Notes under the pieces: model-generated
Databases searched by the model: none
Told to the model about the DNA's origin: nothing
Seen by the model: only the letters and a program-made list of their open reading frames with translations
Part shown: in pieces, positions 6,331 to 64,000 of the stretch
How positions within the stretch are numbered: position 1 is the first letter of the stretch
How the letters are laid out: every line of letters starts with the position of its first letter
From: Eledone cirrhosa
Lineage: Eukaryota
Direction of reading: 5' to 3'
DNA: 64,000 nucleotides
NCBI GenBank assembly: GCA_964016885.1
Contig: OZ024742.1
Coordinates: 155,310,001-155,374,000 of the forward strand
Translations under genes and position numbers: made by a program

Positions 6331-7432
6331 ATGTGTGTGTGTGTGTGTGTGCATGTATGTAATCCGTAATTCAATTTGATGTAGAAATGCGCTCACGTAT
6401 TTCAATATCGGCATTAATTACCTAATATCAAAACATCTGTAAATAAATGTATTAATAAGCATGATGCACTAAACTGTAAATTATCTATGTAAAATTTTGC
6501 CTTGAAGGAAATAAACAGTCGATACTTCATTTGCTTACGCGTGACGTTTTATTGATATTAAATGATTATTACTACTACTAAGAAATTTCATTGTGTTATA
6601 ATTACAATTGGATTCTCTCAGAACACAAAAAATCAAAGGACATATTTCAAATATTGATGCTTGGAGCGTGGAATTACGCAGTAGGGTATTTTTCTTTGTT
6701 TCTATTGTAAATCTTATGAAATATAACTATGAACAATTGCAAAAAATAAAAAGAAATAAAACTGATAATATGCCCTGATGGTTTCCTGTAGAGTACGTAG
6801 CTTTTAGGCTTATTTCTTCAATATTTCTCAAACAGCCTTTTGAGAAATATTGAAGAAACTCAGAAATTATTTATGTAAGGGAAATAAATATAATATTCTT
6901 TTAATCTGTGAAAAAAGAAACACGAACATATTCAAACACATACACAAACAGATCAAAAAAGTTATACATACATACAAACACACACGCACACAAATGTATA
7001 TATATTCATACAAACTCCCACATACACACATTTATATATATATATATATATATATTTATTTATATACATAAACACATACGCACACACACATATATATATT
7101 TATTTATATACATATATAAACACACACACACACACACATATATATTTATTTATATACATATATAACAACACACACACACACATATATATATATATTTGTG
7201 AAAATCAGTCATATGGAACTATTGTCATCTTGCCTGACGGTTGTGAACTTTATAACACCACCTGCCTCTTTGAGGTCAAATACCAACCCTACTAGCATCT
7301 ACAAACTGACCAATGAGAATTAAGACTATTCCTGCTGACAACATTAAATTATTCCTAACATGCTCATATGTCCCAATGCTCTGATACCATCAACACTAGA
7401 AACACAGAGCTGGCATATCTAAGAACTGACTA

Positions 7433-7488
7433 ACTGCCTGATGAAGTCATATCCATTCAATGGCTATCATCGAAATATATATAGCAGT
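7433..7488 (+). ncRNA. Type I hammerhead ribozyme motif with minimal palindromic stem III
   Basis: actgc CTGATGA agtcat...atggct-atcatc GAAA tatata TA gcagt. Stem I is actgc/gcagt, stem III is TATATA, and the AUA triplet ends at 7483. Confidence 0.7.
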
Positions 7489-7904
7489 AAATAAAGGATT
7501 ATGAGTTCATACAATTGACATATGTTTTGTCACTATATATATATATATATGTGTGGGGGGGGGGTATGTGTGTGTGTGCGTGTGTGTGTTCACTTGGTTA
7601 GCTTACGAATCGTTGAGATTTTACGCATTTAGTGATATAGCGGTCACAATGCCCAAAATTATATTAATAGATGATATATCAGGTAAAGTAAAAGTGAGTG
7701 CATTTAACCATCGACCAACCACAATTTCAGGTAACTCAGTATAGAGGACAGGTGTGCTCTGATTCCCCATATGATCTACTGGCCAAACATTTTTCTTTCT
7801 CCGTACCAATTCTCGCGAATTATTCAGCTATTCTTCATAGTTACGAAGTATTACTATTCGTACCTGTATAGTATATGTTGAAATATTTATTTGTATACGC
7901 ACAC

Positions 7905-20389: not shown

Positions 20390-23348
20390 AGGGCCCGGTT
20401 ACTGGAAGCGGAACGCGTCTTTCCGGCGCCCAAAGCCTACACAGACCGGATTAGCGTAGTAAGTAAAGCGGGCGTTGACGGGAGCGGTCGCCAACAACAG
20501 GTTGTGGTTCGCGCTGAAAATTGCAATTAAAGTAGAGTCTATTATGTTTAGCAAAGGACTAGTGATAGAGGAAAATAGAGTAGAGCGAAAGACAGTCAGA
20601 AGGCAAGAAGAGGCAAGAAGAGGCAAGAAGAGGCGTTTAGGACAGGCATCGCAAACGAAGTGCTTCCGGCGAGATTGGCACTCGACCAATTCTTCAAAAC
20701 ACGAAGGCTGCGTTGTCAGAGTTGGAGCGCGTGCTCTGAAACACGAGGGGACAAAAGCCGTCCAATGTGGTCGGGTGGCAGAGACGCGACGTGGTAACAA
20801 AGCCTCAATTCGGTTTTTGTCTGACCCAAAACGGGTGCTGAACTGTTCGGGAGCAGCAGCGGCTCGGATCGGGGCATGGACTTCAGTTCATACCTCGGCG
20901 GCTGCCTCGGCTCACGACAACCGCAGCACAGTGTTTCGAAAAGCCAATAACAGCCGGTGAAATACGGGAAACGATGAGGGGTAACGATGAGGGGTAAATC
21001 TCCCGGTTTGGATGGTCTGCCCTTCGAGCTTTATGCATTTATGCCAGACTTGTTCGGTGACCTCTTGGCAGACGTCTACTCTAACTGGCAGCAGAATGGG
21101 AGCATTCCCAGTTTTGTGAGCCGGGGAGCGATGGGACTGCTGAGAAAAGACCCGAACAAGGGGGATGTTATCGATAATTTCAGGCCCATAACGCTGCTAA
21201 ACGCAGAGTTCAAGATTTTGGCCAAGGTGTTAGAAACAAGATTGGCGCTCGTCGTCAAGGGTCTGCTGGGAGAGTCGCAGACATGCGCCATTCCGGACAG
21301 ATCCACACACGACCTCTACATCATGCGATACATCATAGAGATGGTGGTTAAGGAACCTGGCATGGGTGGGGCCATGGTCAACTTGGATGAATCCAAAGCA
21401 TACGATAGGGACGACCATCGGCACCTGGCGGCGGTGTTGAGGCAGCCGGTTTAGGGCCCGTTTTCATGGGTTGGATCACTGCAATGTACAGCGACATCTG
21501 CTTATTTGTGAAGGTGGACGGTCACTTGTCGCAGCCGTTCAGCATCATGCGCTCAGTCCGCCAGGGTTGCCCCCTCTCTTCCCTCTTGTACGTATTGGTT
21601 CTCGAGCCGTTACTGCACATACTGATGGCGATGAAGTGCTTCCCACGCGAACTAGGATGCGGGAGATCCGAGTCGGCTAACGCCGACGACTTCACCATGG
21701 TGTTGTCGAGCACCAGATACGTACAGATGCTGTGCACCGCTCTCAAGGAATACGAAGCGGTGACAGGCGCAAAGATAAATCAGGAAAAGTCGGCGGGCTT
21801 GCGGCTCGGTACCTGGAGAGACAAGTCCATGCCGTCCGACAGCGTCGTGGTGCGTTTGACGGACGGACCGGTTAAATTGCTCGGTGTCTGGTTCGGACCA
21901 AACCTCCAGATGGAGAAACAACTGGAACGAGGTGACGAGCAAGGTGGCCGCACTCAACCAGAAATGGGCAGAGAGAAAGCTGTCCTTGAAAGGCCGGGCG
22001 GAGGTGGCGAATGCGTACATCGCATCCGTCATCTGCTACCGCCTCACCGTCGTCCCTTGCTCCGGCCCAACTCTCACCAAAATGGAGCCCCTCCACTTCC
22101 GTTCTATGTTGAAGGGACGCGCTCCCATGGTCAGACGATCCATCTCCTGTCACACCCGTTGCGTGGAGGACTGGAGATGCCATGGCTGAATATGCGCAAA
22201 CATGCGCTGAGGCTGCGACATCTCTTTTGCTTCCTTGACAGTAAACAGGTGTGGTCGCCGTTCGCCAGGCACGTTTTCCCCACAGCTCGTCTCCTTCACG
22301 GAGCTGCAGTCCTGGGTCAGACAAAAACCGAGGGATAGCGCTTGGAAACAGGAATGTCTCCAGGCGCTCACTGCCCTCTGCCAGCTGGGCACCAGTATCG
22401 GTGGAACACCTACCTCGGCGTTTTATAGAGGACTAGTGGAGGAGAAGAGCGGCGACGTTCTCGGAGAGATCCTGGGCGTCGAAGAAGATCAGCTGTTTGC
22501 ACTCTTCCGGAGAACTTTCAGCCAGGGCCTATGGTTAACTTCCAAAAATCCATGGCCTGGCAGTGCTACCCGGGAGCGTTGCCGGTTCAAGATAAGCTCT
22601 ACAGGTACTGAAGTGCTGTCAGCCGAGCCTGTCCGAGATGCGCGCAGAGCAACGAAATCGTCGTACACGCACTCGTTCAGTGCCTGAGCATTTCTGACTT
22701 GTTGGGCTATGTCGAACAGTTGCTGTCGCGTGTAGGACTGATCCGGTCATCGACTGAGTCCATTGTGCAGATGGTCTCCTTCGAGGAGGAAGGGCAGGCG
22801 GTTTTCATCTGCCTGGTGGCCATGACGAAAGAGATTGTGTGGTGGACAAGTTTGAAAGGGTTAAATACAGACACTTTCCTCTTCGGCGAATCCCTAATTA
22901 AGTTTTTCAAGTTTCACTTGAACAAGAAAATAAGGGTGGAGAGACATGTGCTGCCTTCTAGCAAGTTTGTTGAAATGTGGGTGAATGTAACGCGATTGGT
23001 CTGAGTGAACGGGAACGTTCTGAATATACGCCTCTAGTTTGAGAAATGGAAACATTGAGAGAGGGCACTTGCCCTGGTGGTCAGGGTGGCTGTGGTCTTT
23101 TGTGTGGTTTTCGCCACGAGTAACCATCGGAGGTTTCCCCCCTATTGGGAAATTATTCATTGTTTCAATTTTTATTGTTATTGTTTATATATATATACGT
23201 TTCTGTCTTTTTTAAAACTTTTTTATATAAATAATAAACATTTCTACACTCACAGAACCCACATCGTACCGTCCTGTGCCGTCTGTAATGTTTTTCTTGA
23301 TGTCAGTCCCTGTGGCCAATAAAGAAATTATTATTATTATTATTATTA
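20390..23348 (+). mobile_element. 5'-truncated, frameshifted L1/Tx1-clade LINE (ORF2 pseudogene)
   Basis: Starts with GPGYWKRNAS (end of the APE endonuclease). RT motifs GKSPGLDGLPFELY, NFRPITLLNAEFKILAK, SVRQGCPLS and ADD are split over ORFs 20475-20960, 20987-21454, 21466-22338, 21884-22189 and 22699-23004. AATAAA at about 23318 is followed by an (ATT)n tail. Confidence 0.9.
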
Positions 23349-24471
23349 CAGCTGCATTTATCTTGCTTTATGTTCATACGAGTTATCACCAAGTCAAAAC
23401 CAGTGACCTCAAGAGACAACAAGGTCCGCCATGTTCAAGAAAGAACATACATATTCACACATGCATCTTTAGTGTTTAGACTTGTGATGTACTTTTATTG
23501 ACAGAATCTTCCTTAGTATATGGGCAGTTCCCATTAGTACTATCTTTTGTATTTCTCCTATACGCGGGTTTCCTGGGATTTGCGATAAGTAATCATTAGC
23601 CCCCTTAGGTATCATTCCCAGAGCGCCTACAACCACTGGTATTGTTTTAGTTCTCAATTTCCACATTTTTCCAATTTCTATCTCCAGGTCCTTATACTTG
23701 CTCAATTTTTCAAATGTTTTTATAGATACATTCCTGTCTATTGGAACAGACATATCAATTAGCAGGCATACCCTCTTTTGAAAGTCTTTCAATATTATAT
23801 CAGGTCTGTTTGCATCTATTTTTCGGTCTGTTTGGATGCTAAAGTTCCACAAGATTGAGATGTGATCTTTTTCAAGTATGGGAGGTGGTTGATGCTCCCA
23901 CCAATTCTTTTGATGGGGCAGGTCAAAATGCTTACACATTATCCAATGTATGTATTGTGCAGCTCTGTCATGCCTGTTTAGATATTCGGTTGGAGCTATA
24001 GGACTGCTCATTGAATTTATATGGTCAATGGTCTCTGGTTGTTTTTTGCATACACGGCATAATGGGCTGCACCCATTTTTTATTATGTTGGCTTGGTAAT
24101 ATTTTGTTGGCAGACACTGATCTTGTGCCGATATAATCAGTCCTTCAGTCTCCGATTTCAGTCCAGAGGATGCTAACCACTGATGGGTTAAAGTTTTGTC
24201 AACATCAGGATTGTTAGCTCGCTCTGGGTATTTTCCATACAGAGGCTTTTCTTGCCATTTCTTAGCCAGTTTCTGTAGCAGTTCTTTCTTTGCAGTTACT
24301 TTTACCTGCTTTGCTTTTTCTGTGTTTTCCATTTCAGCAGTAAATGGGACTTCTGAAATTTGTAGTCCATTACTGTATCTTTGTGCATCTTTTGTAATGG
24401 AATATGATCTTTTGATACTTTCGTGTTTCAAAATGAGTTTGATCATCCAATCATGTGATTCCCTTAGATAT

Positions 24472-24473
<2 letters not shown>
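23349..24473 (-). mobile_element. 5'-truncated R4/Dong-type LINE, family B (C-terminal zinc knuckle + restriction-like endonuclease)
   Basis: ORF 23469-24446 has CRVC...ETIDHI, RHD, NRPDIIL...IDM and EKLSKYKDL...IPVVVGALG. Bounded by (TTA)n at both ends. Clearly divergent from family A. Confidence 0.9.
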
Positions 24474-24518
<45 letters not shown>

Positions 24519-24525
24519 GTTATTA

Positions 24526-25041
24526 TTCCTTAAATTTCAGTCATTGATGTTAGTTAACTGGAAAGTCCGTTGGAATGAATATCAAGCCACTACCTGCCGC
24601 CTCAGATATTCAGGATATTCAGGACGTATCGGAGGGTTTTTGCTGTTCCCAGCAAGCATGCCTTTTGAAGCGTTCCAAAAAGCGTGAAGGGGCCGATTTT
24701 CTTTAACCATCCCTGGAAACTTTTGGAGATAGTCCCCAGTGCGCCTATGGGAATCGGGATCACCCTGACTTCATGGCAGTTCCAAATCCTTTTTACCTCC
24801 TACTTTAAGTCCTGGTATCGGTTAATTTTCTCCCTCTCCTTCTCTTGCACTCTCGTGTCGAATGGGCAGGCTACATCCACAATCAGGCACGATCGTTTTT
24901 CTTTGTCCAGAACCACCAGGTCAGGTCTATTGTGTTCCAGTTTCTTGTCCGTTTGTATCCTAAAATCCCACAGCACCTTCACCTGATCGTTCTCCATCAC
25001 CGCCTCTGGCTTATGCTCATACCATTTCTCAGATTGTGGTA
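24526..25041 (-). mobile_element. R4/Dong-type LINE family A, short 3' fragment
   Basis: Nearly identical to 25087-25591, with a stop, a small deletion and a gatattcag duplication. Flanked by (TTA)n. Confidence 0.92.
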
Positions 25042-25160: not shown

Positions 25161-26024
25161 TCAGATATTCAGGACGTATCGGAGGGTTCTTGCTGTTCCA
25201 AGCAAGCATGCCTTTTGAAGCGTTCCAAAAAGCGTGAAGGGGCCGATTTTCTTTAACCATCCCTGGAAACTTTTGGAGATAGTCCCCAGTGCGCCTATGA
25301 CAATCGGGATCACTTTGACTTCATGGCAGTTCCAAATCCTTTTCACCTCCCACTTTAGGTCCTGGTATCGCTTAATTTTCTCCCTCTCCTTCTCTTGCAC
25401 TCTCGTGTCGAACGGGCAGGCCACATCCACAATCAGGCACGATCTTTTTTCTTTGTCCACAACCACCAGGTCAGGTCTATTGTGTTCCAGTTTTTTGTCC
25501 GTCTGTGTCCCAAAATCCCACAGCACCTTCACCTGATTGTTCTCCATCACCGCCTCTGGCCTATGCTCATACCATTTCTCAGAATGTGGTAGATTGTTTA
25601 CTTTGCACAGGTGCCAGTGGATCACCCTGCCCATCACATCGTGTCTCCAGCCCTTATAGTGGGTCTGGGCTAGGTGTTTACACTCGGACACAATGTGAGC
25701 CACAGTCTCCTCTCTTTCTCCACAGATCCTGCACAGTGGGCTGGCCTTCTCCTTGTAGATATGGTGCTTCAACCACTTCGTTTTGAGGGCCTGCTCCTGC
25801 GCAGCCATTAGCATTCCTTCTGTAGCCTTTTTGAGGTCTCCTCTTCTCAACCAGTTCCATGTCTGTGGATCTCTAAATTCAGTTTTCTCAAAGAAGGTAC
25901 TATGAAGGGGTTTTCCCTTAAGGCTGCTCTTCCTCCTTGATGTTATTTCCTCCCTGGACATCCCCTGGCCTACTGTCCCCTCCTTCAGTACAGCTCTGAG
26001 CATTGGCTCCTTACTATAGGTCAC
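25161..26024 (-). CDS. R4/Dong retrotransposon ORF, C-terminal zinc knuckle/RLE part (continuation after frameshift)
   Basis: 287-aa ORF that is continuous with the RT in the sister copy 55980-57668. Confidence 0.88.
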   Translation of the reverse strand: MTYSKEPMLRAVLKEGTVGQGMSREEITSRRKSSLKGKPLHSTFFEKTEFRDPQTWNWLRRGDLKKATEGMLMAAQEQALKTKWLKHHIYKEKASPLCRICGEREETVAHIVSECKHLAQTHYKGWRHDVMGRVIHWHLCKVNNLPHSEKWYEHRPEAVMENNQVKVLWDFGTQTDKKLEHNRPDLVVVDKEKRSCLIVDVACPFDTRVQEKEREKIKRYQDLKWEVKRIWNCHEVKVIPIVIGALGTISKSFQGWLKKIGPFTLFGTLQKACLLGTARTLRYVLNI

Positions 26025-28552
26025 GTATTTGTATAGGTTGTTTTTCTCTCCATCTGAACACAGTCCTCTATGCTGATAAGACCTCTTCCACCCTCAGATC
26101 TCCTTAGGTAGAGTCTATCGACATCACTCCTCTTGTGGAACATGTTGTAGATAGTCAATAGCTTCCTAGTCTTCCTATCCATTTCATTCTGTTCAGCAAC
26201 ATTCCATCTCAGAATTCCCGCACTGTACCTAATAATAGACACAGCTCGGGAATTTACTGCGCTTATGGCATTTCTGCTGTTCAGATGTGACTTCAATACG
26301 CTCCTTACTCTCCGAATGTATTCAGTTCTTAACAATTCCTTCATTTTTTTGTTCTTTATGCCATCAGCCTCCAGAACGCCCAAATACTTGTATCCTTCCT
26401 CAGAGTCAATTTCCTTTATCATCTCACCTGTTGGTATCTGGATCCCGTTACTTCTGCTCAACCTACCCCTCTTCATCACAATGACTCCACATTTACCAAT
26501 ACCAAACTGCATACATATATCACTGCTGAAAATACGGACAGTGTCAACAAGCACATCCAACTCCTTCTCACTTTTCCCGAAGAGCTTAAGATCGTCCATG
26601 AAGAGGAGGTGATTGATGGTAAGCTCTCCTCTTCCCAACTTGTATCCTGCTCTCACTTTTCGCAGCATAATGGTCAAGGGCATCAGGGCAAGGACAAACA
26701 ACAGAGGGGACAGGCTATCTCCCTGGAAGATACCTCTCTTGATCTTCACGCTTCCCAAGGATACTCCAGTTGATGTCAACTCTGTCTCCCAGGACCCCTT
26801 ACTCCTGCCTAGCAACTGTCTGATGTTATCTGCCACCCTGAAGATCTCCAGGCTTTTGGTGATCCAGGAATGAGGCACCATGTCAAATGCCTTTCTGTAG
26901 TCTATCCATCCCATGGCAAGATCAGTGTGTCTCCTCCTGCAATTCCCCATTACCATCTTATCAATAAGCAACTGGTCCTTTGTACTACGTGACTTCTTTC
27001 GGCATCCTTTCTGTTCGTCCGGTAACAAGTTGTTTGTGTGGAGGTGATGGTAGATTTCCTCAGACACAATGCTCGTCAACAGTTTCCACATTACGGGCAG
27101 ACATGTGATAGGTCTATAGTTGGTAGCATCATTACCCTTGATTCGGTCTTTCATTATCAGAACTGTGGTACCTTTTGTCAACCACTCTGGCACCTCACCC
27201 GACACCAAGCAGTCATTGAACATGGCCGTCAGCTTCGGGTGGAGGGATGTTAGATGTTTAATCCAATACCCCTGCACACCATCTGGGCCTGGTGATTTCC
27301 AGTTGGTTAGTTTTTTGGCTTGCCCCTTAAGAGTTTCAACTGTGATACTCAAATCAGTCTGTTGCTGTGCCTGCTCACCGATCTCCCTCTGTACTGTCTC
27401 AATCCACCCTGCCTGGGCATTGTGTCTAACATCCTGCTCCCATATTCCTCTCCAGAATGTTTTAGTTTGCTCCGCCCCAGGGATCAAGTCGTTGCCTCTT
27501 TCTTTGCCCTCAAGCTGTCCAAACAACATCTTCTGGTTGTTGTCGAACATGCGGTTCTGTTTATACTGACTGACTCTGTTCTCGTATCGCCTGATTTTTG
27601 CACTCTTTGCTACAATGCGTTGCTTCAATTCCTCTATGATAATTAGCTTTTTACTCCTAGTTTTGTATTTTATTTCCAGTCTATTTTTAGTGCCTATGTT
27701 TTTTAGTGTCCCATTCAGTAGTGACTCAAGCTTTCCTATGTCATTTCTCATTTCCCCGATTTGCCCACTCAGTCGCTTCTTCCACCACGGCTCTGCTCTT
27801 TCTTGTCTGTTGTTTCCTCTCGCTTTTATACCAAGTAGTTTCCTCACCGTATTTGCTGTTGCTCTGAGGATATTGTTGCACTGGTGAAGGCTCCTTGCCT
27901 CAAGGTATGGGATGACTTTGTTTACCTTAGCTGTTGTTTCTTTTAACTTTTTCCTGTCTACAAATCTTAGGTTCATAGGTCTCCCACTATCATTGTTCAA
28001 TTCATCTACCACTAAATTTAGGATGTCAACCGAATCTTGTCCTAGCCCGTCAGCTTTCATCTCCTCAGTGGCCGCATCTCTGTTCCAGGTATTATTTATC
28101 TCAGTACTCAGATCATTGTCTGCTTCGGGTGGTTCCTCCGTTCTCAGGACCTCCTCACCTTCATTTCCCACCGGCTCGCTTGTCTGGCATACTACACCCG
28201 CCATCTCCAAGCCATTCTCTCTGCTCAGTTCCTCCAGTTCCAGCTCGCTTATCCACCCATTAGTTCTTATTACCCGAGCCTGCCCGGCCAATTTTTGTTC
28301 ATCCAATTTAAATAAACCAATCTCGTTCCAGATGTTATGCATCCGTCTCCTGTAGCCCCTCTCCTTGGGGTTACTTTTCAGGTAGCATTGCATAACAGTT
28401 CTATTCAATTCTTTCGTCCAGTTGGTTCTGGCCCCTTTCCTTCTTCTCCTTCCTCCAACATCAGCAGTATTTGGTTGACAGTCAGGTTCCTGCTGCTGAG
28501 CCAGGGGGCACCTGTTGGGTGAGAGTCTGTCACATGACGTTCTAGTCTCCAT
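26021..28552 (-). CDS. R4/Dong retrotransposon ORF, N-terminal + RT part (frameshifted at 3' end)
   Basis: 843-aa ORF with a complete set of non-LTR RT motifs. Confidence 0.9.
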   Translation of the reverse strand: METRTSCDRLSPNRCPLAQQQEPDCQPNTADVGGRRRRKGARTNWTKELNRTVMQCYLKSNPKERGYRRRMHNIWNEIGLFKLDEQKLAGQARVIRTNGWISELELEELSRENGLEMAGVVCQTSEPVGNEGEEVLRTEEPPEADNDLSTEINNTWNRDAATEEMKADGLGQDSVDILNLVVDELNNDSGRPMNLRFVDRKKLKETTAKVNKVIPYLEARSLHQCNNILRATANTVRKLLGIKARGNNRQERAEPWWKKRLSGQIGEMRNDIGKLESLLNGTLKNIGTKNRLEIKYKTRSKKLIIIEELKQRIVAKSAKIRRYENRVSQYKQNRMFDNNQKMLFGQLEGKERGNDLIPGAEQTKTFWRGIWEQDVRHNAQAGWIETVQREIGEQAQQQTDLSITVETLKGQAKKLTNWKSPGPDGVQGYWIKHLTSLHPKLTAMFNDCLVSGEVPEWLTKGTTVLIMKDRIKGNDATNYRPITCLPVMWKLLTSIVSEEIYHHLHTNNLLPDEQKGCRKKSRSTKDQLLIDKMVMGNCRRRHTDLAMGWIDYRKAFDMVPHSWITKSLEIFRVADNIRQLLGRSKGSWETELTSTGVSLGSVKIKRGIFQGDSLSPLLFVLALMPLTIMLRKVRAGYKLGRGELTINHLLFMDDLKLFGKSEKELDVLVDTVRIFSSDICMQFGIGKCGVIVMKRGRLSRSNGIQIPTGEMIKEIDSEEGYKYLGVLEADGIKNKKMKELLRTEYIRRVRSVLKSHLNSRNAISAVNSRAVSIIRYSAGILRWNVAEQNEMDRKTRKLLTIYNMFHKRSDVDRLYLRRSEGGRGLISIEDCVQMERKTTYTNT

Positions 28553-29498
28553 TTCACCGTTATTCGAACTGTTTATGTTCGATATTTAAACACTCTTATC
28601 GAGGATTGGCGAATGTATGTTTACATAGCCATCTGTGGATCCGCCATCCCACTTGGCCCTTGTGTGGCATTATCACCACGCTGTATACGAACACACATAA
28701 ACAAACAAACACACAGGCAGAAAGGGCCCCAGAAATGAATAAGCATATGTTTCATTGTAATGTAGTGTTCGAATGTCTGTATTATTATTATTATTATTAT
28801 TAGTAGTAGTATTATTATTATTATCGACATCGCCATCGTCACATTAACTCTATTGCTGAAATCATTAACATGACTGGTTTTTGAAATCTCCATGGTTTCC
28901 AAAATTTGCCCACGCCAGTAATAAAATGTATGCACACCAGTTTTAACTAACACATTATATCATATCATTGGAAAGACTAAAATAAAAATCAGAATTTACA
29001 AAACCAACTACACTATAACAGCTCAAACGTGGACATTAACAACAATAACATGACGATGATCTTAGAGACTTTAGCATTAGGCTGTTTTCAACCTAGTAAC
29101 AATAAAGCTCACCTAACAACCAAAGAGATATCCTGTTCATCTTTGTAATTCTATTAATCATCATCGTCATTATCGTGACCATCTCAAGCTTCAGACATCG
29201 ACTTTACCATTGTTCTTCAAAACTAGAACCATTATCACAAGTATTTAGTGATGTTGTTTTTTTCTGCCTCATAATTTTTTATTGAGGTCATACATAGTTC
29301 ATCCAAAACAAAATGTAAACAACACAGCATTCATAGATATTTTATGGTATAATATAATATAACTTAATATTACACAATATTATATAACATTGTATTTTAC
29401 TATTATAATACTATATACTATTATTGCATTTACGCAGTCCAGTGTTTAAGGAAATGTAGAAACTGGTCACAAATTGTAGTCAGGGGCATACGTATATG

Positions 29499-39198: not shown

Positions 39199-39449
39199 AT
39201 AAATTAACGGAGGCATAGGCCGTCGTTATTCCCTGTTAATAATGTGCTCAAAGGAGAAGAGATCCTGAGCCCTTTAGAATATAATATGTTGAGAAGGTAA
39301 CACACCAGAGAGAGATATATAGTGCGTTATCAATAATACAGGGAAAAAACCACCAGTGTATGGAATCTATAACCTATGAAAGGCAGACTATAGGCACGAT
39401 AATTAAAAATATAAATTAAAGCGTAAATAAATACCTCTATAACTATATA

Positions 39450-39528
39450 ACACACGTACAAATCCAGAGATATGTTTCACCAGAGAATTTGTTGAAAGAA
39501 ATGTTAGTCTCGGTTCATCAGCGTGTGT
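39450..39528 (-). ncRNA. Type I hammerhead ribozyme (inverted copy)
   Basis: Exact reverse complement of 39814-39892. Confidence 0.82.
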
Positions 39529-39813
39529 AAGGCTATACATTTCAGACAACACTAAGAGAATTTTACAATTGACTGTCCAGCTACACGTGGGAGAGAGAAG
39601 TCACAGCGTGTTTAAGGGCAGTGAACCAGTGGCCTCTGAGAGACGAACTGCTAGAAAGGGCAGCCCAAAGCCACTCAGAGAAGAGTGCTCAACCAAACAA
39701 AGATAGGAAAGGCTGGTTCACTGCCCTTAAATACGCTGTGACTTCTCTCTCCCACGTGTAGCTGGACAGTCAATTGTAAAATTCTCTTAGTGTTGTCTGA
39801 AATGTATAGCCTT

Positions 39814-39892
39814 ACACACGCTGATGAACCGAGACTAACATTTCTTTCAACAAATTCTCTGGTGAAACATATCTCTGGATTTGTACGTGTGT
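39814..39892 (+). ncRNA. Type I hammerhead ribozyme
   Basis: acacacg CTGATGA acc-gaga...tctc-t-ggt GAAA ca-tatctctggatt-tg TA cgtgtgt. Stem I is a perfect 7 bp, stem II is paired, and the GUA triplet ends at 39885. Confidence 0.85.
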
Positions 39893-40096
39893 TATATAGT
39901 TATAGAGGTATTTATTTACGCTTTAATTTATATTTTTAATTATCGTGTCTATAGTCTGCCTTTCATAGGTTATAGATTCCATACACTGGTGGTTTTTTCC
40001 CTGTATTATTGATAACGCACTATATATCTCTCTCTGGTGTGTTACCTTCTCAACATATTATATCTATATATATATGTATATCTCTATGTAGGAGCA

Positions 40097-45362: not shown

Positions 45363-45431
<69 letters not shown>

Positions 45432-45618
45432 AACGTTTTATTTAAATTGTTGGTATACAACAAGCAAATATGTTTATAACTGATATAAAGCACTCGACAA
45501 ATATTTGGAGTAGATATACGATATTAATAAATGGAAACTATCCTGATGGCCCCCGAAAACAACGGTCAATTTTTAAAAGGGGTACGTCAATGTCTATTTA
45601 TAAAACTGTTATATATTG

Positions 45619-45683
45619 TATTTTGTCTGATGAAGGCATACCATAATGTAACTTGGTATCCTTGAAATATATATAATGAAATA
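45619..45683 (+). ncRNA. Type I hammerhead ribozyme with minimal palindromic stem III, inside a 200-bp unit with 28-bp inverted ends
   Basis: tattttgt CTGATGA agg-c-atacca...tggtat-cct-t GAAA tatata TA atgaaata. atatacgatattaataaatggaaactat (45514-45541) is inverted at 45687-45714. Confidence 0.8.
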
Positions 45684-46767
45684 AATATAGTTTCCATTTA
45701 TTAATATCGTATATATATATATATATATATATAGTGTATTTTAAAATAAGAGGGAGTCATAAACGGGGTACATTCCCGAGCGTATATATATATATATATA
45801 TATAATTGCGTGCGCCTCCAGAGCGAGTTGCCCTGCGCAGAAAGGTCTATTCACTAAATATGTTATAGCTATCTTATATTATGTTCCGTTTGGAGATGTG
45901 TAATAAAAAACAACAACAACCAATTATATTAGTATTTAGGGAGTTCTTTAACTTAATGCCCCATATCTGTTCTACTTCAAAGATTCGGAGAGGATTTATT
46001 ACCGCAGTTTCATGGATTGGTTGTATTTATAAATCTGGTAATTATTGTGATGGCTGAGGAAGTAGCATGGAGATGGATCTTGAATTCAAATCTGGAGTTT
46101 TATATAAACAGTCAAATTGCATTTTTTTCTTATTACCCTTTGGCTAATTATAATTATTGGCATTCTTCCTGTGCATTTCTTTCTTAATTCCTCTTAATCA
46201 ATCCCTATTTTTCTGGAAGAAATCGGCTGTTCTGATCTGGCGGGGCTCTGCCTTATCTAAACACTACCGTGTTTAACCGTTATATACATACATGACATTT
46301 TATTTAATAGATATTTCTCTGGACTACGATAAAGAACACACATGTTAGGTGAAGCATTCATTTGCATCAGCTTACACGAAAATATATGCATTTTATTAAC
46401 AGGAGATGGGAATTCTCGCGGAGCATGATCATTTGTTTATTGGAGAGGTCATCATTTATGTATTTGTGAGAAGATTCGACATTTTTCAATAAACATGAAA
46501 TACAAAGTATATTTTCAGTAACAATCATCCGTACCCATCAGTCAAATGAAAGAATAGTTTCCTTTAATATTTCAATTGCTGGTCATATTTAGCGGTGGCA
46601 AACGTTGGCGGAAGGATTAGCAAGAAATAACATATTTTTTTAAGGATACAACGTACCACCTACAAAAGGTATTGAACGATTAACCCTCTGATTGTGAGTC
46701 CAAAATGTTCCTATCACCTCACACAGTGCACGGACACACATACATACATAAACACACACCCACACCA

Positions 46768-49081: not shown

Positions 49082-49152
49082 GATGTGTTGGTGTAATGGT
49101 AGCACAGTGGTCGCGATAACCAAATATGTGGGTTCGACTCCCATGTACGTCA
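49082..49152 (+). pseudogene. tRNA-like cloverleaf, copy 2 (apparent CGA anticodon, short variable loop)
   Basis: Acceptor gatgtgt/gtacgtc, D-arm gtgt-aatggta-gcac, anticodon arm tggt-cgCGAta-acca, T-arm gtggg-ttcgact-cccat, followed by a T-tract. G at position 33 argues against a functional tRNA. Confidence 0.65.
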
Positions 49153-55893: not shown

Positions 55894-58451
55894 GTTATTG
55901 TTATTCCTTGAATCTCAGTCATTGATGTTGGTTAACTGGAAAGTCCGTTGGATTGAATACCAAGCCACTACCTGCAGCCTCAGATATTCAGGACGTATCG
56001 GAGGGTTCTTGCCGTTCCAAGCAAGCATGCCTTTTGAAGCGTTCCAAAAAGCGTGAAGGGGCCGATTTTCTTTAACCATCCCTGGAAACCTTTGGAGATA
56101 GTCCCCAGTGCGCCTATGACAAGCGGGATCACTTTGACGTCATGGCAGTTCCAAATCCTTTTCACCTCCCACTTTAGGTCCTGGTATCGGTTAATTTTCT
56201 CCCTCTCCTTCTCTTGCACTCTCCTGTCGAACGGGCAGGCCACATCCACAATCAGGCACGATCTTTTTTCTTTGTCCACAACCACCAGGTCAGGTCTATT
56301 GTGTTCCAGTTTTTTGTCCGTCTGTATCCTAAAATCCCACAGCACCTTCACCTGACTGTTCTCCATCACCGCCTCTGGCCTATGCTCATACCATTTCTCA
56401 GAATGTGGTAGATTGTTTACTTTGCACAGGTGCCAGTGGATCACCCTGCCCATCACATCGTGTCTCCAGCCCTTATAGTGGGTCTGGGCTAGGTGTTTAC
56501 ACTCGGACACAATGTGAGCCACAGTCTCCTCTCTCTCTCCACAGATCCTGCACAGTGGGCTAGCCTCCTCCTTGTAGATATGGTGCTTCAACCACTTCGT
56601 TTTGAGGGCCTGCTCCTGCGCAGCCATTAGCATTCCTTCTGTAGCCTTTTTGAGGTCTCCTCTTCTCAACCAGTTCCATGTCTGTGGATCTCTAAATTCA
56701 GTTTTCTCAAAGAAGGTACTATGAAGGGATTTTCCCTTAAGGCTTTTCTTCCTTCTTGATGTTATTTCCTCCTTGGATATCCCCTGGCCTACTGTCCCCT
56801 CCTTCAGTACAGCTCTGAGCATTGGCTCCTTACTATAGGTCACGTATTTGTATAGGTTGTTTTTCTCCATCTGAACACAGTCCTCTATGCTGATAAGACC
56901 TCTTCCACCCTCAGATCTCCTTAGGTAGAGTCTATCGACATCACTCCTCTTATGGAACATGTTGTAGATAGTCAATATCTTCCTAGTCTTCCTATCCATT
57001 TCTTTTTGTTCAGCAACATTCCATCTCAGAATTCCCGCACTGTACCTAATAATAGACACAGCTCGGGAATTTACTGCGCTTATGGCATTTCTGCTGTTCA
57101 GATGTGACTTCAATACGCTCCTTACTCTCCGAATGTATTCAGTTCTTAACAATTCCTTCATTTTTTTGTTCTTTATGCCATCAGCCTCCAGAACGCCCAA
57201 ATACTTGTATCCTTCCTCAGAGTCAATTTCCTTTATCATCTCACCTGTTGGTATCTGGATCCCGTTACTTCTGCTCAACCTACCCCTCTTCATCACAATG
57301 ACTCCACATTTACCAATACCAAACTGCATACATATATCACTGCTGAAAATACGGACAGTGTCAACAAGCACATCCAACTCCTTCTCACTTTTCCCGAAGA
57401 GCTTAAGATCATCCATGAAGAGGAGGTGATTGATGGTAAGCTCTCCCCTTCCCAACTTGTATCCTGCTCTCACTTTTCGCAGCATAATGGTCAAGGGCAT
57501 CAGGGCAAGGACAAACAACAGATGGGACAGGCTATCTCCCTGGAAGATACCTCTCTTGATCTTCACGCTTCCCAAGGATACTCCAGTTGATGTCAACTCT
57601 GTCTCCCAGGACCCCATACTCCTGTCCAGCAACTGTCTGATGTTATCTGCCACCCTGAAGATCTCCAAGCTTTTGGTGATCTAGGAATGAGGCACCATGT
57701 CAAATGCCTTTCTGTAGTCTATCCATCCCATGGCAAGATCAGTGTGTCTCCTCCTGCAATTCCCCATTACCATCTTATCAATAAGCAACTGGTCCTTTGT
57801 ACCACGTGACTTCTTTCGGCATCCTTTCTGTTCGTCCGGTAACAAGTTGTTTGTGTGGAGGTGATGGTAGATTTCCTCAGACACAATGCTCGTCAACAGT
57901 TTCCACATTACGGGCAGACATGTGATAGGTCTATAGTTGGTAACATCATTACCCTTGATTCGGTCTTTCATTATCAGAACTGTGGTACCTTTTGTCAACC
58001 ACTCTGGCACCTCACCCGACACCAAGCAGTCATTGAACATGGCCGTCAGCTTCGGGTGGAGGGATGTTAAATGTTTAATCCAATACCCCTGCACACCATC
58101 TGGGCCTGGTGATTTCCAGTTGGTTAGTTTTTTGGCTTGCCCCTTAAGAGTTTCAACTGTGATACTCAAATCAGTCTGTTGTTGTGCCTGCTCACCGATC
58201 TCCCTCTGTACTGTCTCAATCCACCCTGCCTGGGCATTGTGTCTAACATCCTGCTCCCATATTCCTCTCCAGAATGTTTTAGCTTGTTCCGCCCCAGGGA
58301 TCAAGTCGTTGCCTCTTTCTTTCCCCTCAAGCTGTCCAAACAGCATCTTCTGGTTGTTGTCGAACATGCGGTTCTGTTTATACTGACTGACTCTGTTCTC
58401 GTATCGCCTGATTTTGGCACTCTTTGCTACAATGCGTTGCTTCAATTCCTC

Positions 58452-58452
<1 letters not shown>
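55893..58452 (-). mobile_element. 5'-truncated R4/Dong-type LINE family A, second long copy
   Basis: Nearly identical to 25087-27635. ORF interrupted by TGG>TAG at 57681-57683. Both ends lie in (TAA)n. Confidence 0.93.
55980..57668 (-). CDS. R4/Dong RT-knuckle-RLE open frame (downstream of premature stop)
   Basis: 562-aa ORF with GIFQGDSLS, LFMDD, CRIC...H...C and RPD motifs. Confidence 0.85.
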   Translation of the reverse strand: MEIFRVADNIRQLLDRSMGSWETELTSTGVSLGSVKIKRGIFQGDSLSHLLFVLALMPLTIMLRKVRAGYKLGRGELTINHLLFMDDLKLFGKSEKELDVLVDTVRIFSSDICMQFGIGKCGVIVMKRGRLSRSNGIQIPTGEMIKEIDSEEGYKYLGVLEADGIKNKKMKELLRTEYIRRVRSVLKSHLNSRNAISAVNSRAVSIIRYSAGILRWNVAEQKEMDRKTRKILTIYNMFHKRSDVDRLYLRRSEGGRGLISIEDCVQMEKNNLYKYVTYSKEPMLRAVLKEGTVGQGISKEEITSRRKKSLKGKSLHSTFFEKTEFRDPQTWNWLRRGDLKKATEGMLMAAQEQALKTKWLKHHIYKEEASPLCRICGEREETVAHIVSECKHLAQTHYKGWRHDVMGRVIHWHLCKVNNLPHSEKWYEHRPEAVMENSQVKVLWDFRIQTDKKLEHNRPDLVVVDKEKRSCLIVDVACPFDRRVQEKEREKINRYQDLKWEVKRIWNCHDVKVIPLVIGALGTISKGFQGWLKKIGPFTLFGTLQKACLLGTARTLRYVLNI

Positions 58453-58512
<60 letters not shown>

Positions 58513-58642
58513 TTCCTCCTCCTCCTCCTCTTCCTCCTCATCACGTTTCTCCTCCTCCTCCTCCGACTATTCTTCTTCTTCTTCTTCTTCTTCTTCTTCT
58601 TCTTCTTCTTCTTCTTCTTCTTCTTCTTCTTCTTCTTCTTCT
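58453..58642. repeat. Compound (TTA)n/(CCT)n/(CTT)n microsatellite
   Basis: Direct reading. Confidence 0.95.
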
Positions 58643-59049
58643 TTGTCCCTTATTCCTGGAAGAGTCATTTGGTGCCGAGTCCACACACAAGGGTTCCTCT
58701 CAGAAAGTGGGGTTAACTCGTGTTTGATGAAGGAACGGAGTTAGAAAAATAAACGACAAAAGAAGGCTGGACAGAGTTTACACCCAAGGCCTTCTTGAAT
58801 CACTTGTTTTCATTCGTGAAGCACTTACAAGCAAATATATCCGGTGCATGTCATTTAGACTGCAACTCTAACATTTCTGCAAATAATATACTTTTAGTAT
58901 GATTTAAACAATCAGCTTATGCAGGAAAACTAAGTTCATAGAAACAGAATATGTATGAATACATATGATAACATTTAATTTTGTTTGAATTAGTTCCCTC
59001 TAATTTGTACTGGTAAATTGCATGTGTGTATATATGATTATAATTGTAT

Positions 59050-59429: not shown

Positions 59430-60990
59430 CAATTCAATATATTTGGCAGAAAGTAAAACATAGATGCTTCAGATTTCATGTAAGGAGGGGAGAGGGGGGC
59501 AACATTTACACAGTCGGAAACACAGTGGTCCAACACCGGTCCAATTTCGCCTTGAATTGTTGCGTGGTTGGCGCGTTGACTACTTCTTCTGGAAGCCGAT
59601 TCCAGGGTCCAGAGATACGTTTCGAGAAAGCAGCTTTCTGTCTATTTAGGCGAAAGCGGCGGTGAAACACCTTTTTGTCATGTCCACGTAGACCCGTTTC
59701 AAGTGCCTGAGTGAATAGGAGATCTTGAGGGAGATTGTAATGGCCATTCAAGAGATTGTAAGCCAAAATGAGATCGCCTCGTAGCCATCGACGCTCCAAG
59801 GAGAAGAGGTCCAGCTTCTGCAGCCGATTTCGTAGGGCAGCTCATGAAGACCCTGTACCATTCCAGTCGCTAGTCGTTGAACTCTCTCCTAGTGATGGAT
59901 ATCCCGGATGAGATATGGGTTTGATGCTTGGATGCCATATTCTAAGTGCGGTCTCTCGAGGGCGACATAAAGAGGCCTGACATTTTCTGGAGTGAGTTTG
60001 GCCAAGAAGAGTCGAATAAGAAAAAGAGAGCTCCTCGCCTTGTTTGCGGCTTGAATGCAATGTTTTGATGGTTTGAAGGACGAGTCGACGAGCAGCCCAA
60101 GATCTTTAGTCTCCTCAACTTCCTTGAAAGGAGCAGAGGCACCGTTGGGATTAAGAGCTTAGTTATAAGGTGTAACCACTGCCATTTGGCAACACTTATC
60201 AACATTGAGGTATACATTCCAGTCAACGTACCAACTCCAGGCGCGCTGGAGGCTGGACTTGAGATTGTCGACCTCGCTCCTACGGGCTACCATCTTCACA
60301 TCATCTGCAAATAGGAGCATGTTTCCACCAATCACATGTATAGAACTAAGAAAATTGGGCCCAACTAAGAGCCCTAGGACACGCCACTGCCTACACCCAC
60401 CCACGATGACAAAACTGCCAATGATCCAAACTCTGCAAGTACGACCGTCAATAAATGATCCAATCCACTTTATAATCGAGTCATGGAGACCATAGTTGCT
60501 GAGCTTCTACAGGAGCAGGCGGTGGTTGACAGAGTCAAAGGCTTTGGCGAAGTCGAGAAAGATAATATCGGCCGCATCTCCATCGTCCACTATCATCCTC
60601 ACCAATTCTTCCATCACGAGTAGGTTTGTGAGACAGGAACGTTTCGGGATGAACCCCTGTTGAGATGGAGAGATGGCAGTGAAAGACGCAAGATGAGCAA
60701 TAATTGCCCGCTTGATTAGAGATTCCAAGGCCTTACAGACAATTGAGGCGAGGCTCACGGGTCTGTAGTTCACCGGGTCTTCTTTGTCGCCTTTTTTAAA
60801 GATAGGGCAAATTGTACCTACTTTCCAGTAGGCATGAACAACTCCGGTAGCCAATGATAGGTTGAATAGTGTGGCTAGATGTTTAGCAAGGTTGGGTGCA
60901 ACTGCACCCAAACTTGCTGGATGTAGACCGTCTGGACCATGCCCCTTATACACATATAAGGACAAATGCAACTTTTCCACTTCGTCCGGT
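59423..60990 (-). mobile_element. Decayed CR1-clade LINE (RT and 3' end) with (TTGAA)n tail
   Basis: Motifs GPDGLHP, NYRPVSLASIVCK, DFAKAFDSVNH, LFADD, ERRWLRGDLILAY and LRGH...WNRLPEEVV...FKAKLD. The attcaattcaattcaat tail is at 59423-59438. Confidence 0.9.
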
Positions 60991-61614
60991 ATATAATGTT
61001 ATGAAACGAAAGGAGCTGTGTGGTTACTCAAAACAAGGTTTAGGATGGGGGTTAGGACGGAACAGGAGGAGAAAGGAAGAAAGGAGTTTCCATCGTCAGC
61101 TGTAAATCTTTCCCGAACCGATGTTTCGGCGCTGAATTACAGGACATCGTTGTAGTTCGGGTGCGCCCGGGGCTTTTTATTAATCAAAAGGCCAGGTGGA
61201 AAAGGAGAGAGAAAGAGAGAAAGAAGTGTACAGGTCCCATCGCGGGAAGACACAGGTGAAAGAAACATGCACAAATGTAATCGTGGAAAGATAGGGAAAG
61301 TAAGTTGTGGCCAAACTGGGAGACTTTAGCCTGGTGGTCAGCTACGACTGGGAGCAGGTATAATTGTGCTGCCTCTCACATAGGCAGGAGAAAGTGAGAG
61401 AGCGACACGGGCAACAATATAAAAAATTGGAAACATAGGTGAAGTTAAAACACCTCAAAATGCAGTAATTTATTATAATGAACAGTACATAAAGGCTATG
61501 TTTAATAATTCTTTGAATACTTTTTTTCAAACAAGCATGTGTACACAATTCTCTAAGGTTAGAAATAATTATTACGCTTGAAGTAAATTATTCATTAAAG
61601 TAATTACCAAATAC

Positions 61615-61756: not shown

Positions 61757-63851
61757 ATATATATATACCTTTGGAATAGAATGCGCGTGTGTGCGTAGGT
61801 ATGTATACACATGTTCATCGAGTTAATAATATACTACCATTGTTATGAATGTATTTTTATTTCATGTAAACATTGAAGTACCATATAAGAATGACATTTT
61901 CAAATTTATTTCAAACTTAATATTGTATTTTGATTTGTATAAAATATATAGCTACGAAACAATTTGATAAGTCCATATTACTTCGCCTAACCTTTCATAC
62001 TAACCAAAATATTGTAAAACAAATTCAAATATATATATATGTCTGGTGCCCCAGCATGGCCTCAGCCGGATGGATGGAATATTTAAAAGAATAAAAGATG
62101 TATATATATATATAATCTGTCAAAAAATTTACGGCATGCATGCTCAACATTTCCTGCTCCCTGTCTCTATGTTTAGCTCCTTCACATAAACTTACACACA
62201 TATAAGTATGTATCTCAGTGTGCCTCTGCGTGTGTGTGATTGTTACATTTATACATCAGTTACCTAAATATTCATAACGATGCTATTATTTTTAATAGCA
62301 CGAATGTCTCTTGTTCAACATGAATCAACAATTTAGTGAGGTGCTTATATATTTATAATATAGAACGTTAATGTTACAGGAAATTAAGAAATAAACAAAT
62401 AAATACTGGTCGACGCTTTCCTCGTTGGTGACTTTATCAATTGAAATTCATATCAGTAATATTCATAGGCATAGGCGTAAATATTGTCTTACCTCCACCA
62501 TAGAATATGTTGTAAATTATGAGCATCTTTATTCAGACACCTGCACACATTTGTCTATTCACTCAGTGTTCATTCATGGATTAGGCTCGCTGGCATATCT
62601 AAGCCCGTAAATAGGAAAACATTTAAGAGTCAGTCATACATTTGTTCAGCTCAATAAAGAAAATATCTTGATATTCTATTAAAAGCCTCTTTCTTTTCAA
62701 GTATCTCATAGCTAATATGTTTCTAGTTAGCATGGATATTACACTTGCTTCTACAATATTCGGTAATTTTATCCGCAAGGGATACATATTCAATTTATAC
62801 ATCAATGTATTACCCCTAATTGTCATATACATCATGGAAAATGTGTAATGGTCATGAAATATAATTTTCCTCTAACATATACTTGTATAAATGGCATGTG
62901 TTGAAAATATAAATAGATAGACCTTTAAAACTCATAACAGATATAGCATATTTGATTTTTTCACATATATCGATACACTTCATCAAAAAGTATAATCATA
63001 ATTGTTAATATATACATGTTTTCACGCCCCCATCAAAACAAATACATTTACATATATATGAATGTATTCAAAATTGTATAATACTAAACTATTGAATATA
63101 TCTTTCATGCATTACTAATTTATGCAACATTTCAAGAAAATATTAAAATGATGACGCAAAAGCGCTGCTTTCAAATATTATATATAGCTTTGTATATTTC
63201 ATAATGATTAAATTTATGTTATTGTACAGTAAATATATATGATCCCAGTAAATAAGAGATTTTCGATAACATTCTAGACGGGATTTATTAACAACAACGG
63301 ATAATCAGAAAGAGAAATTAACTAAAACTTCAGTTTATCTGATGACTGGGAAAGGTGAAGAAAATATATAGTGTCTTGCTCGGGCATCAAATATTTCCTC
63401 ATGATGAGAATCATCATTAATTGATTGGATATACAGTATACTGAGATTGACTTTTGCCAATAATATCTTGCTAGGTATTAAATTGCATTTTCTTATAATT
63501 TATCAATATTTTCCATATAGCAATATGTTAACAAAAGAATAATATTAACATAATATACATAGAATAATCTATTTATACAAACACGCATTATATCGTGTTA
63601 GGTTGTAAAAAAGATAGTCAATTTGGATAACAAAGTAATGTTTTACCCAGTATATTCTAACACGATAATTGTATCATTTCCCTTTCACATTGTAATAACA
63701 TGTTGAATGTATCTCCTTTATTATCCTTTTCTATATGTCTAACGCATTGGATCGGCTTTTTGGAATATATAAATATATACATTAGAGGGATATATATATA
63801 TATATATATACAATATTAAATAAATGGAAACTATATTTATAAAACCATATT

Positions 63852-63917
63852 TATTTCATTATATATATTTCAGGGATATCATATTAACAATATGCTATGC
63901 CTTCCTCAGACAAAATA
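63852..63917 (-). ncRNA. Type I hammerhead ribozyme, same family as 45619-45683
   Basis: Minus strand: tattttgt CTGAGGA agg-c-atagcatatt-gtt-aatatgatat-ccct GAAA tatata TA atgaaata. Flanks match 45590-45705, and the 3' end faces (TA)n at 63791-63810. Confidence 0.8.
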
Positions 63918-64000
63918 CAATATAAACAGTTTTATAGATAAATAGATTCGACATACCGTAACAACATCGACTTTTATTTAATCTGTTTGGTATGATGCTT

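What the first reader, a model, noticed from the sequence alone, without database searches (positions are those of the whole stretch)
45514..45714. 200-bp unit with 28-bp inverted ends and a hammerhead; paralog at 63.9 kb changes sequence but keeps the fold
45619-45683 and 63852-63917 share identical stem I, GAAA-TATATA-TA and flanks. They differ at the variable N7 core position (CUGAUGA versus CUGAGGA) and in distal stem II (atacca/tggtat versus atagcatatt/aatatgatat), which still pairs in both. Variation where hammerheads tolerate it is internal evidence that the fold is real. The left 28 bp is an inverted copy of the 3' tail, the same outward-facing layout in miniature.
Basis: seen in the sequence. 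Interest (0 to 1): 0.72.

Follow-up and report, generated by a model that had tools for sequence, protein, structure and literature searches.

The report
Penelope retrotransposon stub with twin starts
This is a short leftover of a known kind of jumping gene (a Penelope-like retrotransposon) in a TA repeat, with a hammerhead ribozyme motif whose cutting is only predicted; its two back-to-back arms end at two fixed sites, each just before a small conserved RNA hairpin that likely tells the enzyme where to start copying.

Summary
The 28-bp inverted repeat and both hammerhead motifs are real, but the unit is mis-bounded. It spans 45429-45709 (281 bp) between (TA)n tracts: the left arm carries a further 90-bp 'tail'. 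It is one truncated insertion of an abundant Hydra-type Penelope-like element (742-aa telomerase-like RT; 12,329 hammerhead-pattern matches in the genome). Arm lengths vary from about 20 bp to kilobases, so these are not terminal repeats. Outward-facing pairs carry one tailed and one tail-less end (97 of 101; 43 of 43 in a position-ordered sample). Both end sites fit a point 7 nt before a bulged hairpin present twice in the leader. Its stem covaries in relatives chosen by protein alone (76 of 76). Arms' 5' ends pile up at an initiator/DPE-like site, where this copy's long arm starts. Kind, tail and inversion are published. I found the twin hairpin and one-of-each rule in no paper searched; this scan noted both before on other DNA. 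Nothing was tested biochemically.

The parts
45364..45428 (.). (TA)n target tract, left
45429..45541 (-). Left (inverted) arm, 113 bp: starts 23 nt 5' of site B, runs through the tail and ends at site A
   Evidence: 118 of 291 ends stop at the same offset
45429..45518 (-). 90-bp tail between site B and site A; in full-length copies part of the leader between hammerhead and ATG
45489..45511 (-). Hairpin 1: ACUC-stem-loop-2-nt bulge-GAGU-GCU, starting 7 nt after site B; hairpin 2 lies beyond site A and is not in this copy
45537..45541 (.). Inversion junction; 5 nt (ACTAT) shared by both arms
45537..45709 (+). Right arm, 173 bp (187 nt in family coordinates, 14-nt deletion): from the initiator-like A to site B
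45564..45568 (+). DPE-like GGTCA at +28 to +32 from 45537 (consensus recalled; promoter predicted)
45581..45587 (+). Splice-donor-like GGTACGT, GT at +46 (untested)
   Evidence: Penelope intron 46 bp after the start, PMC2377424 passage
45619..45683 (+). Type I hammerhead motif: stem I 45619-26/45676-83, CUGAUGA 45627-33, stem II 45634-63, GAAA 45664-67, palindromic stem III 45667-74, predicted cut 45675/45676
45710..45733 (.). (TA)n target tract, right
63811..63979 (-). Lone tail-less arm of a sister subfamily with its hammerhead motif at 63852-63917
7431..7530 (+). End of a more distant Hydra-type family: hammerhead with the same stem III palindrome, tail-less end at (TA)n

Best explanation
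This is a short, doubly truncated insertion of an autonomous Hydra-type Penelope-like retrotransposon in (TA)n, likely made when both strands of the cut TA target primed reverse transcription at two different internal sites of the element's RNA leader. Shown: the arms match the ends of an RT-encoding family; ends fall at two fixed sites about 90 nt apart; paired ends are one of each; a covarying bulged hairpin follows each site; 5' ends pile up at an initiator/DPE-like motif. Inferred: (1) RNA starts at that motif; (2) the protein, probably two copies, binds hairpins 1 and 2 and starts about 7 nt 5' of each; (3) the site-B cDNA ran to the RNA 5' end (right arm) and the site-A cDNA stopped 23 nt past site B (left arm); (4) the two cDNA ends joined through 5 shared bases. 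The hammerhead is a family-conserved type I motif predicted to cut only as a dimer; this copy holds one and is likely inert. Odds: identity 0.95, one start per strand at two sites 0.75, hairpins set the starts 0.6, promoter run-off 0.55.
For: Arms flank an ORF in long copies; full 742-aa frame with RWR, DKT, YRDD, CxCx5C, CxxC, CxH matching the Hydra description; model pLDDT 88, best fold match telomerase, E 4.6e-9. Ends bimodal: 138 B and 128 A of 291. One-of-each: 97 of 101 classifiable pairs and 43 of 43 outward pairs among 175 position-ordered exact matches. Twin motif 320 matches against 15 control; second hairpin predicted and then found in the 7.4-kb family, 21 against 0. Offset 7 fits 128 of 136 B and 102 of 116 A ends and is the only offset in both peaks. 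Relatives chosen by protein: 33 of 48 have one or two hairpins against 5 of 2,400 shuffles; first upper pair 76 of 76, C-G 50 and U-A 26, 0 of 10,000 shuffles. 5' ends within -3..+5 of the initiator-like A: 18 of 42 in the position-ordered sample, 1.0 expected. In vitro, an anole element cuts and extends both strands and starts at two internal sites that bound the tail (PMC11167929).
Against: No biochemistry. 15 of 48 relatives lack a strict hairpin and only 21 have two. Only 11 of 23 relatives' 3' copies end 1-8 nt before a hairpin, 3 of them at contig ends, and their TA sits at -6/-5 rather than -7. 4 of 101 pairs break the rule and 66 of 274 terminal ends had no partner in the DNA held. Both arms copy the same stretch, so one RNA needs strand displacement, or two RNAs are used; either arm can reach further (41 versus 24). 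The initiator/DPE pair is in 32 of 34 related references but 1 of 37 metagenome relatives, and the 7.4-kb family shows no clear pile-up. The anole element starts in an AC-rich stem-loop inside its ORF, not at this hairpin. The unit is 4.2 kb, longer than the 'generally <3 kb' of Hydra. No GIY-YIG structure was among the listed fold matches.
Confidence: 0.75

Rival explanations
1. Same element, but only one end is primed on RNA; the inverted arm arises by fold-back or template switching on the nascent cDNA and is trimmed at site B by the endonuclease, with the hairpin read as DNA.
For: Craig et al. ascribe the tail to endonuclease resolution of the intermediate. The D. virilis endonuclease needed the tail for DNA cleavage (cited). 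Arm reaches are correlated (rho 0.45) and many junctions share bases.
Against: Either arm may be the longer and may carry the ORF, which a copy-back of one arm explains poorly. Both A and B arms stop at the initiator-like A (21 and 28 of 49). Site A also has its own hairpin, which is never inserted. Two RNA start sites were seen in vitro for an anole element.
Confidence: 0.15
2. The hairpins have another role (translation, RNA folding or protein loading), and the two end sites are set only by TA microhomology between target and RNA.
For: Both sites are followed by 2-6 bases that match (TA)n; TA at -6/-5 in 33 of 62 relative hairpins; the hairpins lie in the 5' leader close to the ATG.
Against: The leader holds longer TA runs, such as the stem III palindrome, that are not used as ends. 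The spacing to the hairpin is kept where the junction bases differ between families.
Confidence: 0.2
3. A self-standing non-autonomous 200-bp element with terminal inverted repeats (MITE-like) or a retrozyme that copies itself.
For: Exact 28-bp inverted repeat; two other short copies of similar build, L003 and L005; retrozymes derive from such ends.
Against: L003 and L005 have different junctions and all carry the tail on one side. Arm lengths run from about 20 bp to 4 kb. No second copy with this junction among 40 scored candidates. No tandem array here.
Confidence: 0.03

Closest known systems
Hydra clade of C-terminal-endonuclease Penelope-like elements (Craig et al. 2021, PMC8557442), e.g. 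Hydra-1_Obim, Penelope-13_HM
   Same: Single ORF with DKT, CxCx5C, CxxC and CxH motifs; (TA)n target; type I hammerhead with palindromic stem III; inverted 5'-truncated copy; tail on one end.
   Different: RWR for RWK; 4.2-kb unit with 1.9-kb 3' region; tail 90 nt against 30-40 nt; hammerhead and leader unlike Hydra-1_Obim. The parts of the paper I read describe no twin hairpin, though by eye it lies in its Hydra-1_Ajap, Hydra-2_Ajap and Hydra-2_Amil consensus sequences.
Poseidon element of Anolis carolinensis, PAc (Frangieh et al. 2024, PMC11167929)
   Same: Both strands cut and extended; two internal start sites bound the tail; hammerhead 5' of the starts and not needed for insertion in vitro.
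   Different: Other clade; starts lie in an AC-rich stem-loop inside the ORF with no target homology. Here they lie in the untranslated leader, with TA microhomology and a repeated hairpin. No one-site-per-strand rule is reported there.
Hammerheads of Penelope-like elements (Cervera and de la Pena 2014, PMC4209133)
   Same: Type I, extra base after A9, long stem II, palindromic stem III for dimers; pairs on opposite strands 100-700 bp apart already noted.
   Different: Stem II has an inner C.C mismatch and a variable distal part; activity of this motif untested.
Penelope of Drosophila virilis internal promoter (Schostak et al. 2008, PMC2377424)
   Same: TATA-less internal promoter with initiator and downstream element, splice donor 46 bp after the start, inverted repeats of variable size.
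   Different: Here inferred only from motifs and truncation points; no acceptor or spliced RNA shown.
L1 twin priming (recalled, not read)
   Same: Second target strand primes internally, giving an inversion joined by microhomology.
   Different: In L1 the two pieces do not overlap and the second site varies; here both arms copy the same stretch from two fixed sites.

Membership tests
Penelope-like element | Telomerase-like RT in a single ORF | tested here: met
   742-aa frame; best fold match telomerase, E 4.6e-9, retron RTs close behind. Pfam and PDB sequence searches gave nothing significant.
Penelope-like element | Partial tandem pseudo-LTR, inverted 5'-truncated copy, one-sided tail | tested here: met
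Hydra clade | C-terminal GIY-YIG endonuclease | tested here: inconclusive
   VVY...YVG strand pair and later R, E, N residues read in the C-terminal domain; no profile or fold hit names it.
Hydra clade | RWK, DKT and CxCx5C motifs; CxxC and CxH around the conserved E and N | tested here: met
   RWR (variant), SDKT, CNCRNKSNC, CDLC, CRH against the text
Hydra clade | CCHH motif absent from the endonuclease | tested here: inconclusive
   None seen by reading the protein; not aligned to CCHH-bearing references.
Hydra clade | Insertion into (TA)n and canonical hammerhead | tested here: met
Hydra clade | Placement in an RT tree with the published references | not tested
   References were only read in the supplement.
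Type I hammerhead ribozyme | Conserved core with free N7 and three stems | tested here: met
   269 flank-selected copies; stem II covariation in the family, stem I varying on one side only; stem I of 3 bp or more in 49 of 57 relatives against at most 19 in controls
Type I hammerhead ribozyme | Self-cleavage | not testable with these tools
   Only a hint: 3 of 278 arms, in two insertions, begin exactly at the predicted cut.
MITE / terminal-inverted-repeat element | Fixed-length inverted termini at both ends, many like copies | tested here: not met
Non-LTR retrozyme | Head-to-tail tandem monomers, each with a hammerhead | tested here: not met
   One hammerhead, inverted layout; definition

The most novel reading that the evidence does not exclude
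Hydra-clade elements carry a duplicated RNA signal, a bulged hairpin conserved across phyla, that docks two reverse transcriptases 60-100 nt apart on one leader. Each is assigned one strand of the cut (TA)n and starts 7 nt before its own hairpin, so tail, inversion and pseudo-LTR are all products of one programmed two-primer reaction that runs off at an internal promoter.
Probability: 0.45. Interest if true: 0.72.

Novelty: new member of a known kind. Interest (0 to 1): 0.48.

Why it matters
How Penelope-like elements make their tails and inverted ends is open; one element has been reconstituted in vitro. This family gives exact predictions: two start sites, each about 7 nt before a 20-30-nt hairpin, one used per target strand, and run-off at a defined 5' end. 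A portable start signal for a telomerase-like enzyme would bear on how telomerase came to copy a fixed internal template, and on RNA-templated insertion tools. The insertion itself is ordinary debris, one of thousands.

Tried and rejected
Rfam: no hit for the hammerhead or hairpin (window at gathering score; 13 loci at E<=1). Single-strand folding: no excess stability. Pfam on 10 frame pieces and PDB by sequence: nothing significant. Homodimer prediction, residues 1-480: no verdict. Sequencing runs: no RNA holder listed. Contigs of 4 runs (one study, possibly the source sample) fall in depth after site A and show loose (AT)n ends at site B, but contigs cannot show ends and are not counted. A first end classifier was too loose and was replaced (then 40 and 48). 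A first hairpin-2 offset was 5 nt off for 4 references and was corrected (then 60). Junction microhomology (0-8 shared bases in 54 of 67 resolved pairs, 28 of 95 unresolved) has no random control and BLAST extension inflates it. The CTGATGG...GAAA stretch at 45544-45559 was considered as a second hammerhead and dropped: G at A9, and it is not kept in the sister subfamilies. Literature searches for the twin hairpin or a one-site-per-strand rule listed nothing that describes them; the library lacks most subscription papers, and figures, the Frangieh supplement and bioRxiv supplements were not seen.

Full report
OBSERVATION. The 28-bp inverted repeat is exact and cannot be extended. The 45.6-kb copy also lacks 14 nt after stem I. 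Neither motif folds better than shuffles and Rfam misses both.

WHAT IT BELONGS TO. The window lies in a 3.0-Gb animal genome; I did not identify it, and the only named homologues are from Argonauta hians (36% identity). The unit's best matches come as outward-facing pairs 0.2-7.6 kb apart, and the long ones enclose an ORF. An intact 742-aa frame has RWR, SDKT, YRDD, CxCx5C, CDLC and CRH, the marks given for the Hydra clade of Penelope-like elements (PMC8557442, section 11). Its model (pLDDT 88) matches telomerase best. The endonuclease is assigned from motifs only. The unit is 4,234 bp with a 140-nt leader after site B and a 1.9-kb 3' region. Exact patterns give 12,329 and 14,659 matches against 0 for reversed controls. 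The 63.9-kb copy is a lone arm of a sister subfamily whose 40 scored copies are 99-100% alike.

TWO FIXED ENDS, ONE OF EACH. Of 291 distinct ends, 138 stop at site B, 128 at site A about 90 nt further, 15 read through to the ATG and 10 are other. After dropping the read-through ends, one at a locus edge and one half-hit, 274 remain. They form 104 outward pairs: 97 have one A and one B, 1 is A/A, 3 are B/B and 3 have an unclassified end; 66 ends had no partner in the DNA held. One B/B is a diverged subfamily with a tail my reference could not align. As a check free of similarity ranking I took exact matches in chromosome order (75 tailed and 100 tail-less ends in the first 182 Mb of C1, out of 1,654 and 2,233 genome-wide). 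All 43 outward neighbours within 8 kb were one of each. Either arm can reach further (B 41, A 24 of 67 resolved among 95 pairs). The focal copy is the short extreme: A arm left, B arm right, joined through 5 shared bases.

TWIN HAIRPIN. In read-through copies the motif RCUC-stem-loop-2-nt bulge-GAGY-RCU follows both sites. The doubled 3' part has 320 genome matches against 15 (that set is selected on the motif). I predicted a second hairpin after site A of the distant 7.4-kb family and found 21 matches against 0. Allowing for bases shared with (TA)n, a junction 7 nt before the hairpin fits 128 of 136 B ends (range 5-7) and 102 of 116 A ends (range 7-9). For an independent test I fetched 78 metagenome loci by protein alone. 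Of the 48 with the N-terminus matched and 130 nt upstream, 21 have two hairpins, 12 one and 15 none; several of the 15 are rearranged or near misses. Controls: 1 of 48 antisense, 5 of 2,400 shuffles, 7 of 491 ORF windows. Selecting on the outer letters only, the first upper pair forms in 76 of 76 distinct hairpins (C-G 50, U-A 26; shuffle mean 58.9, 0 of 10,000), the second in 52 of 70 and the third in 37 of 43, and only with a 2-nt bulge. These shuffles ignore relatedness. In 11 of 23 loci with a second copy the 3' copy stops 1-8 nt before a hairpin, 3 of them at contig ends; the rest stop elsewhere or diverge. By eye the motif is also in published consensus sequences of sea cucumber (twice in the Hydra-1_Ajap leader) and coral. 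Rfam has no match.

5' ENDS. Truncation points pile up 184-191 nt before site B in subfamilies whose sequence there differs. They coincide with the A of a TCACT motif that has an RGWYV motif at +27/+28 in 32 of 34 related references against 6 of 1,937 background windows (initiator and DPE consensus recalled). 49 of 156 arms end within -3..+5 of that A (3.8 expected if uniform), and 18 of 42 in the position-ordered sample (1.0 expected). The focal right arm starts on it. D. virilis Penelope has such an internal promoter and a donor 46 bp on (PMC2377424, abstract and passages); a donor-like GT lies at +46 here. Against generality: 1 of 37 relatives shows the pair, and the 7.4-kb family has no clear pile-up. 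A strong enzyme stop could give the same peak.

HAMMERHEAD. In 269 copies chosen by flanks, N7 is T155, G68, A41, C5; the other CUGAnGA positions have at most 2 departures and GAAA at most 4, some from deletions. Several non-core positions are as constant, so this alone is modest. On 13 hand-picked subfamily sequences 92.7% of cells pair (34-60% when slid); six stem II pairs change on both sides (143 of 500 shuffles reach that count; 0 of 500 reach the 20 cells). One distal pair is broken in 7 of 13 and stem I varies on one side only. In 57 distinct relatives, selected on the core, stem II pairs in 55 of 57, 53 of 56 and 49 of 51, stem I has 3 bp or more in 49 (control maximum 19), and stem III is palindromic. 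This is the dimer-type motif of PMC4209133 (parts 1-2 of 4), which also notes opposite-strand pairs 100-700 bp apart and low activity in vitro. The focal copy has one motif, so cutting in cis is not expected. Most arms run through the cut site, so the template was mostly uncut; 3 of 278 arms begin exactly at it.

MECHANISM. Shown by sequence: family, two sites, one-of-each, hairpins, pile-up. From the literature: an anole element cuts and extends both strands and starts at two internal sites that bound the tail, with the hammerhead dispensable (PMC11167929, parts 1-2 of 4). Inferred: each cut TA strand primes at one site under one hairpin, the cDNAs run toward the RNA 5' end, and their ends join. 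Unresolved: one RNA with strand displacement or two RNAs; RNA versus DNA reading of the hairpin; how full-length copies arise.

NOVELTY. Clade, target, hammerhead, inverted copy and one-sided tail are published (PMC8557442: passages, section 11, supplement parts 2, 52, 53). A 2026 preprint on retrozymes has no 'hairpin', 'stem' or 'tail' in its main text (part 1 of 5 and a term search). Nine searches listed no description of the twin hairpin or the one-of-each rule; unseen figures, supplements and subscription papers could hold one. Earlier AI notes of this scan report the same kind, the hairpin and the one-arm tail on other DNA; I read them after my own tests and do not count them as support. 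No note held my promoter words. Verdict: new member of a known kind; ordinary as an insertion, moderately interesting for the testable start signal. Interest 0.48.

Noticed in passing
window 39279-39629 and 39713-40063: 351-bp inverted arms, 99% complementary, each with CTGATGA but no near GAAA; about 80 extra bases on the left arm before (TA)n. Looks like another fold-back family with a one-sided tail.
   Followed up: no
window 7431-7530: Third hammerhead, distant Hydra-type family with G-C-rich stem I and the same stem III palindrome; 1,952 first-look candidates; same tail and twin hairpin.
   Followed up: yes
L144 (G000:C7:24049110-24049307) and L158: Three arms begin exactly at the predicted hammerhead cut (-48); in L144 both do. 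Possible trace of cleaved RNA, or of annealing at the palindrome.
   Followed up: partly
window 45581-45587 and all subfamilies: GGTAYGT, splice-donor-like, kept at about +46 where neighbouring bases differ; no acceptor identified.
   Followed up: partly
window 25161-28585 and 55980-58649 (-), 23469-24536 (-): Two near-identical non-LTR retrotransposon frames with RT and a C-terminal RPD-type nuclease motif (label recalled), one interrupted by simple repeats, and a piece of a relative.
   Followed up: no
window 20978-22687 (+) and 60507-60998 (-): Broken fragments of two other LINE-like RTs.
   Followed up: no
window 49082-49152 (+): Weak tRNA match (39.7 bits), perhaps a tRNA-derived SINE head.
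   Followed up: no
L043:1455-8999: Both inverted arms reach into the ORF (about 3.5 and 4.1 kb), a 7.6-kb palindrome-like insertion.
   Followed up: partly
G000:C1:132398356-132398421: Two tail-less ends face each other across one short TA tract: separate insertions into the same repeat.
   Followed up: no
L272 (G000:C1:219359068 on): 76-bp tandem array containing the hairpin's 3' motif and a TA run; origin unknown.
   Followed up: no
L123:6629-8225: An array of about 0.5-kb repeats interrupts the 3' region of an otherwise intact copy.
   Followed up: no
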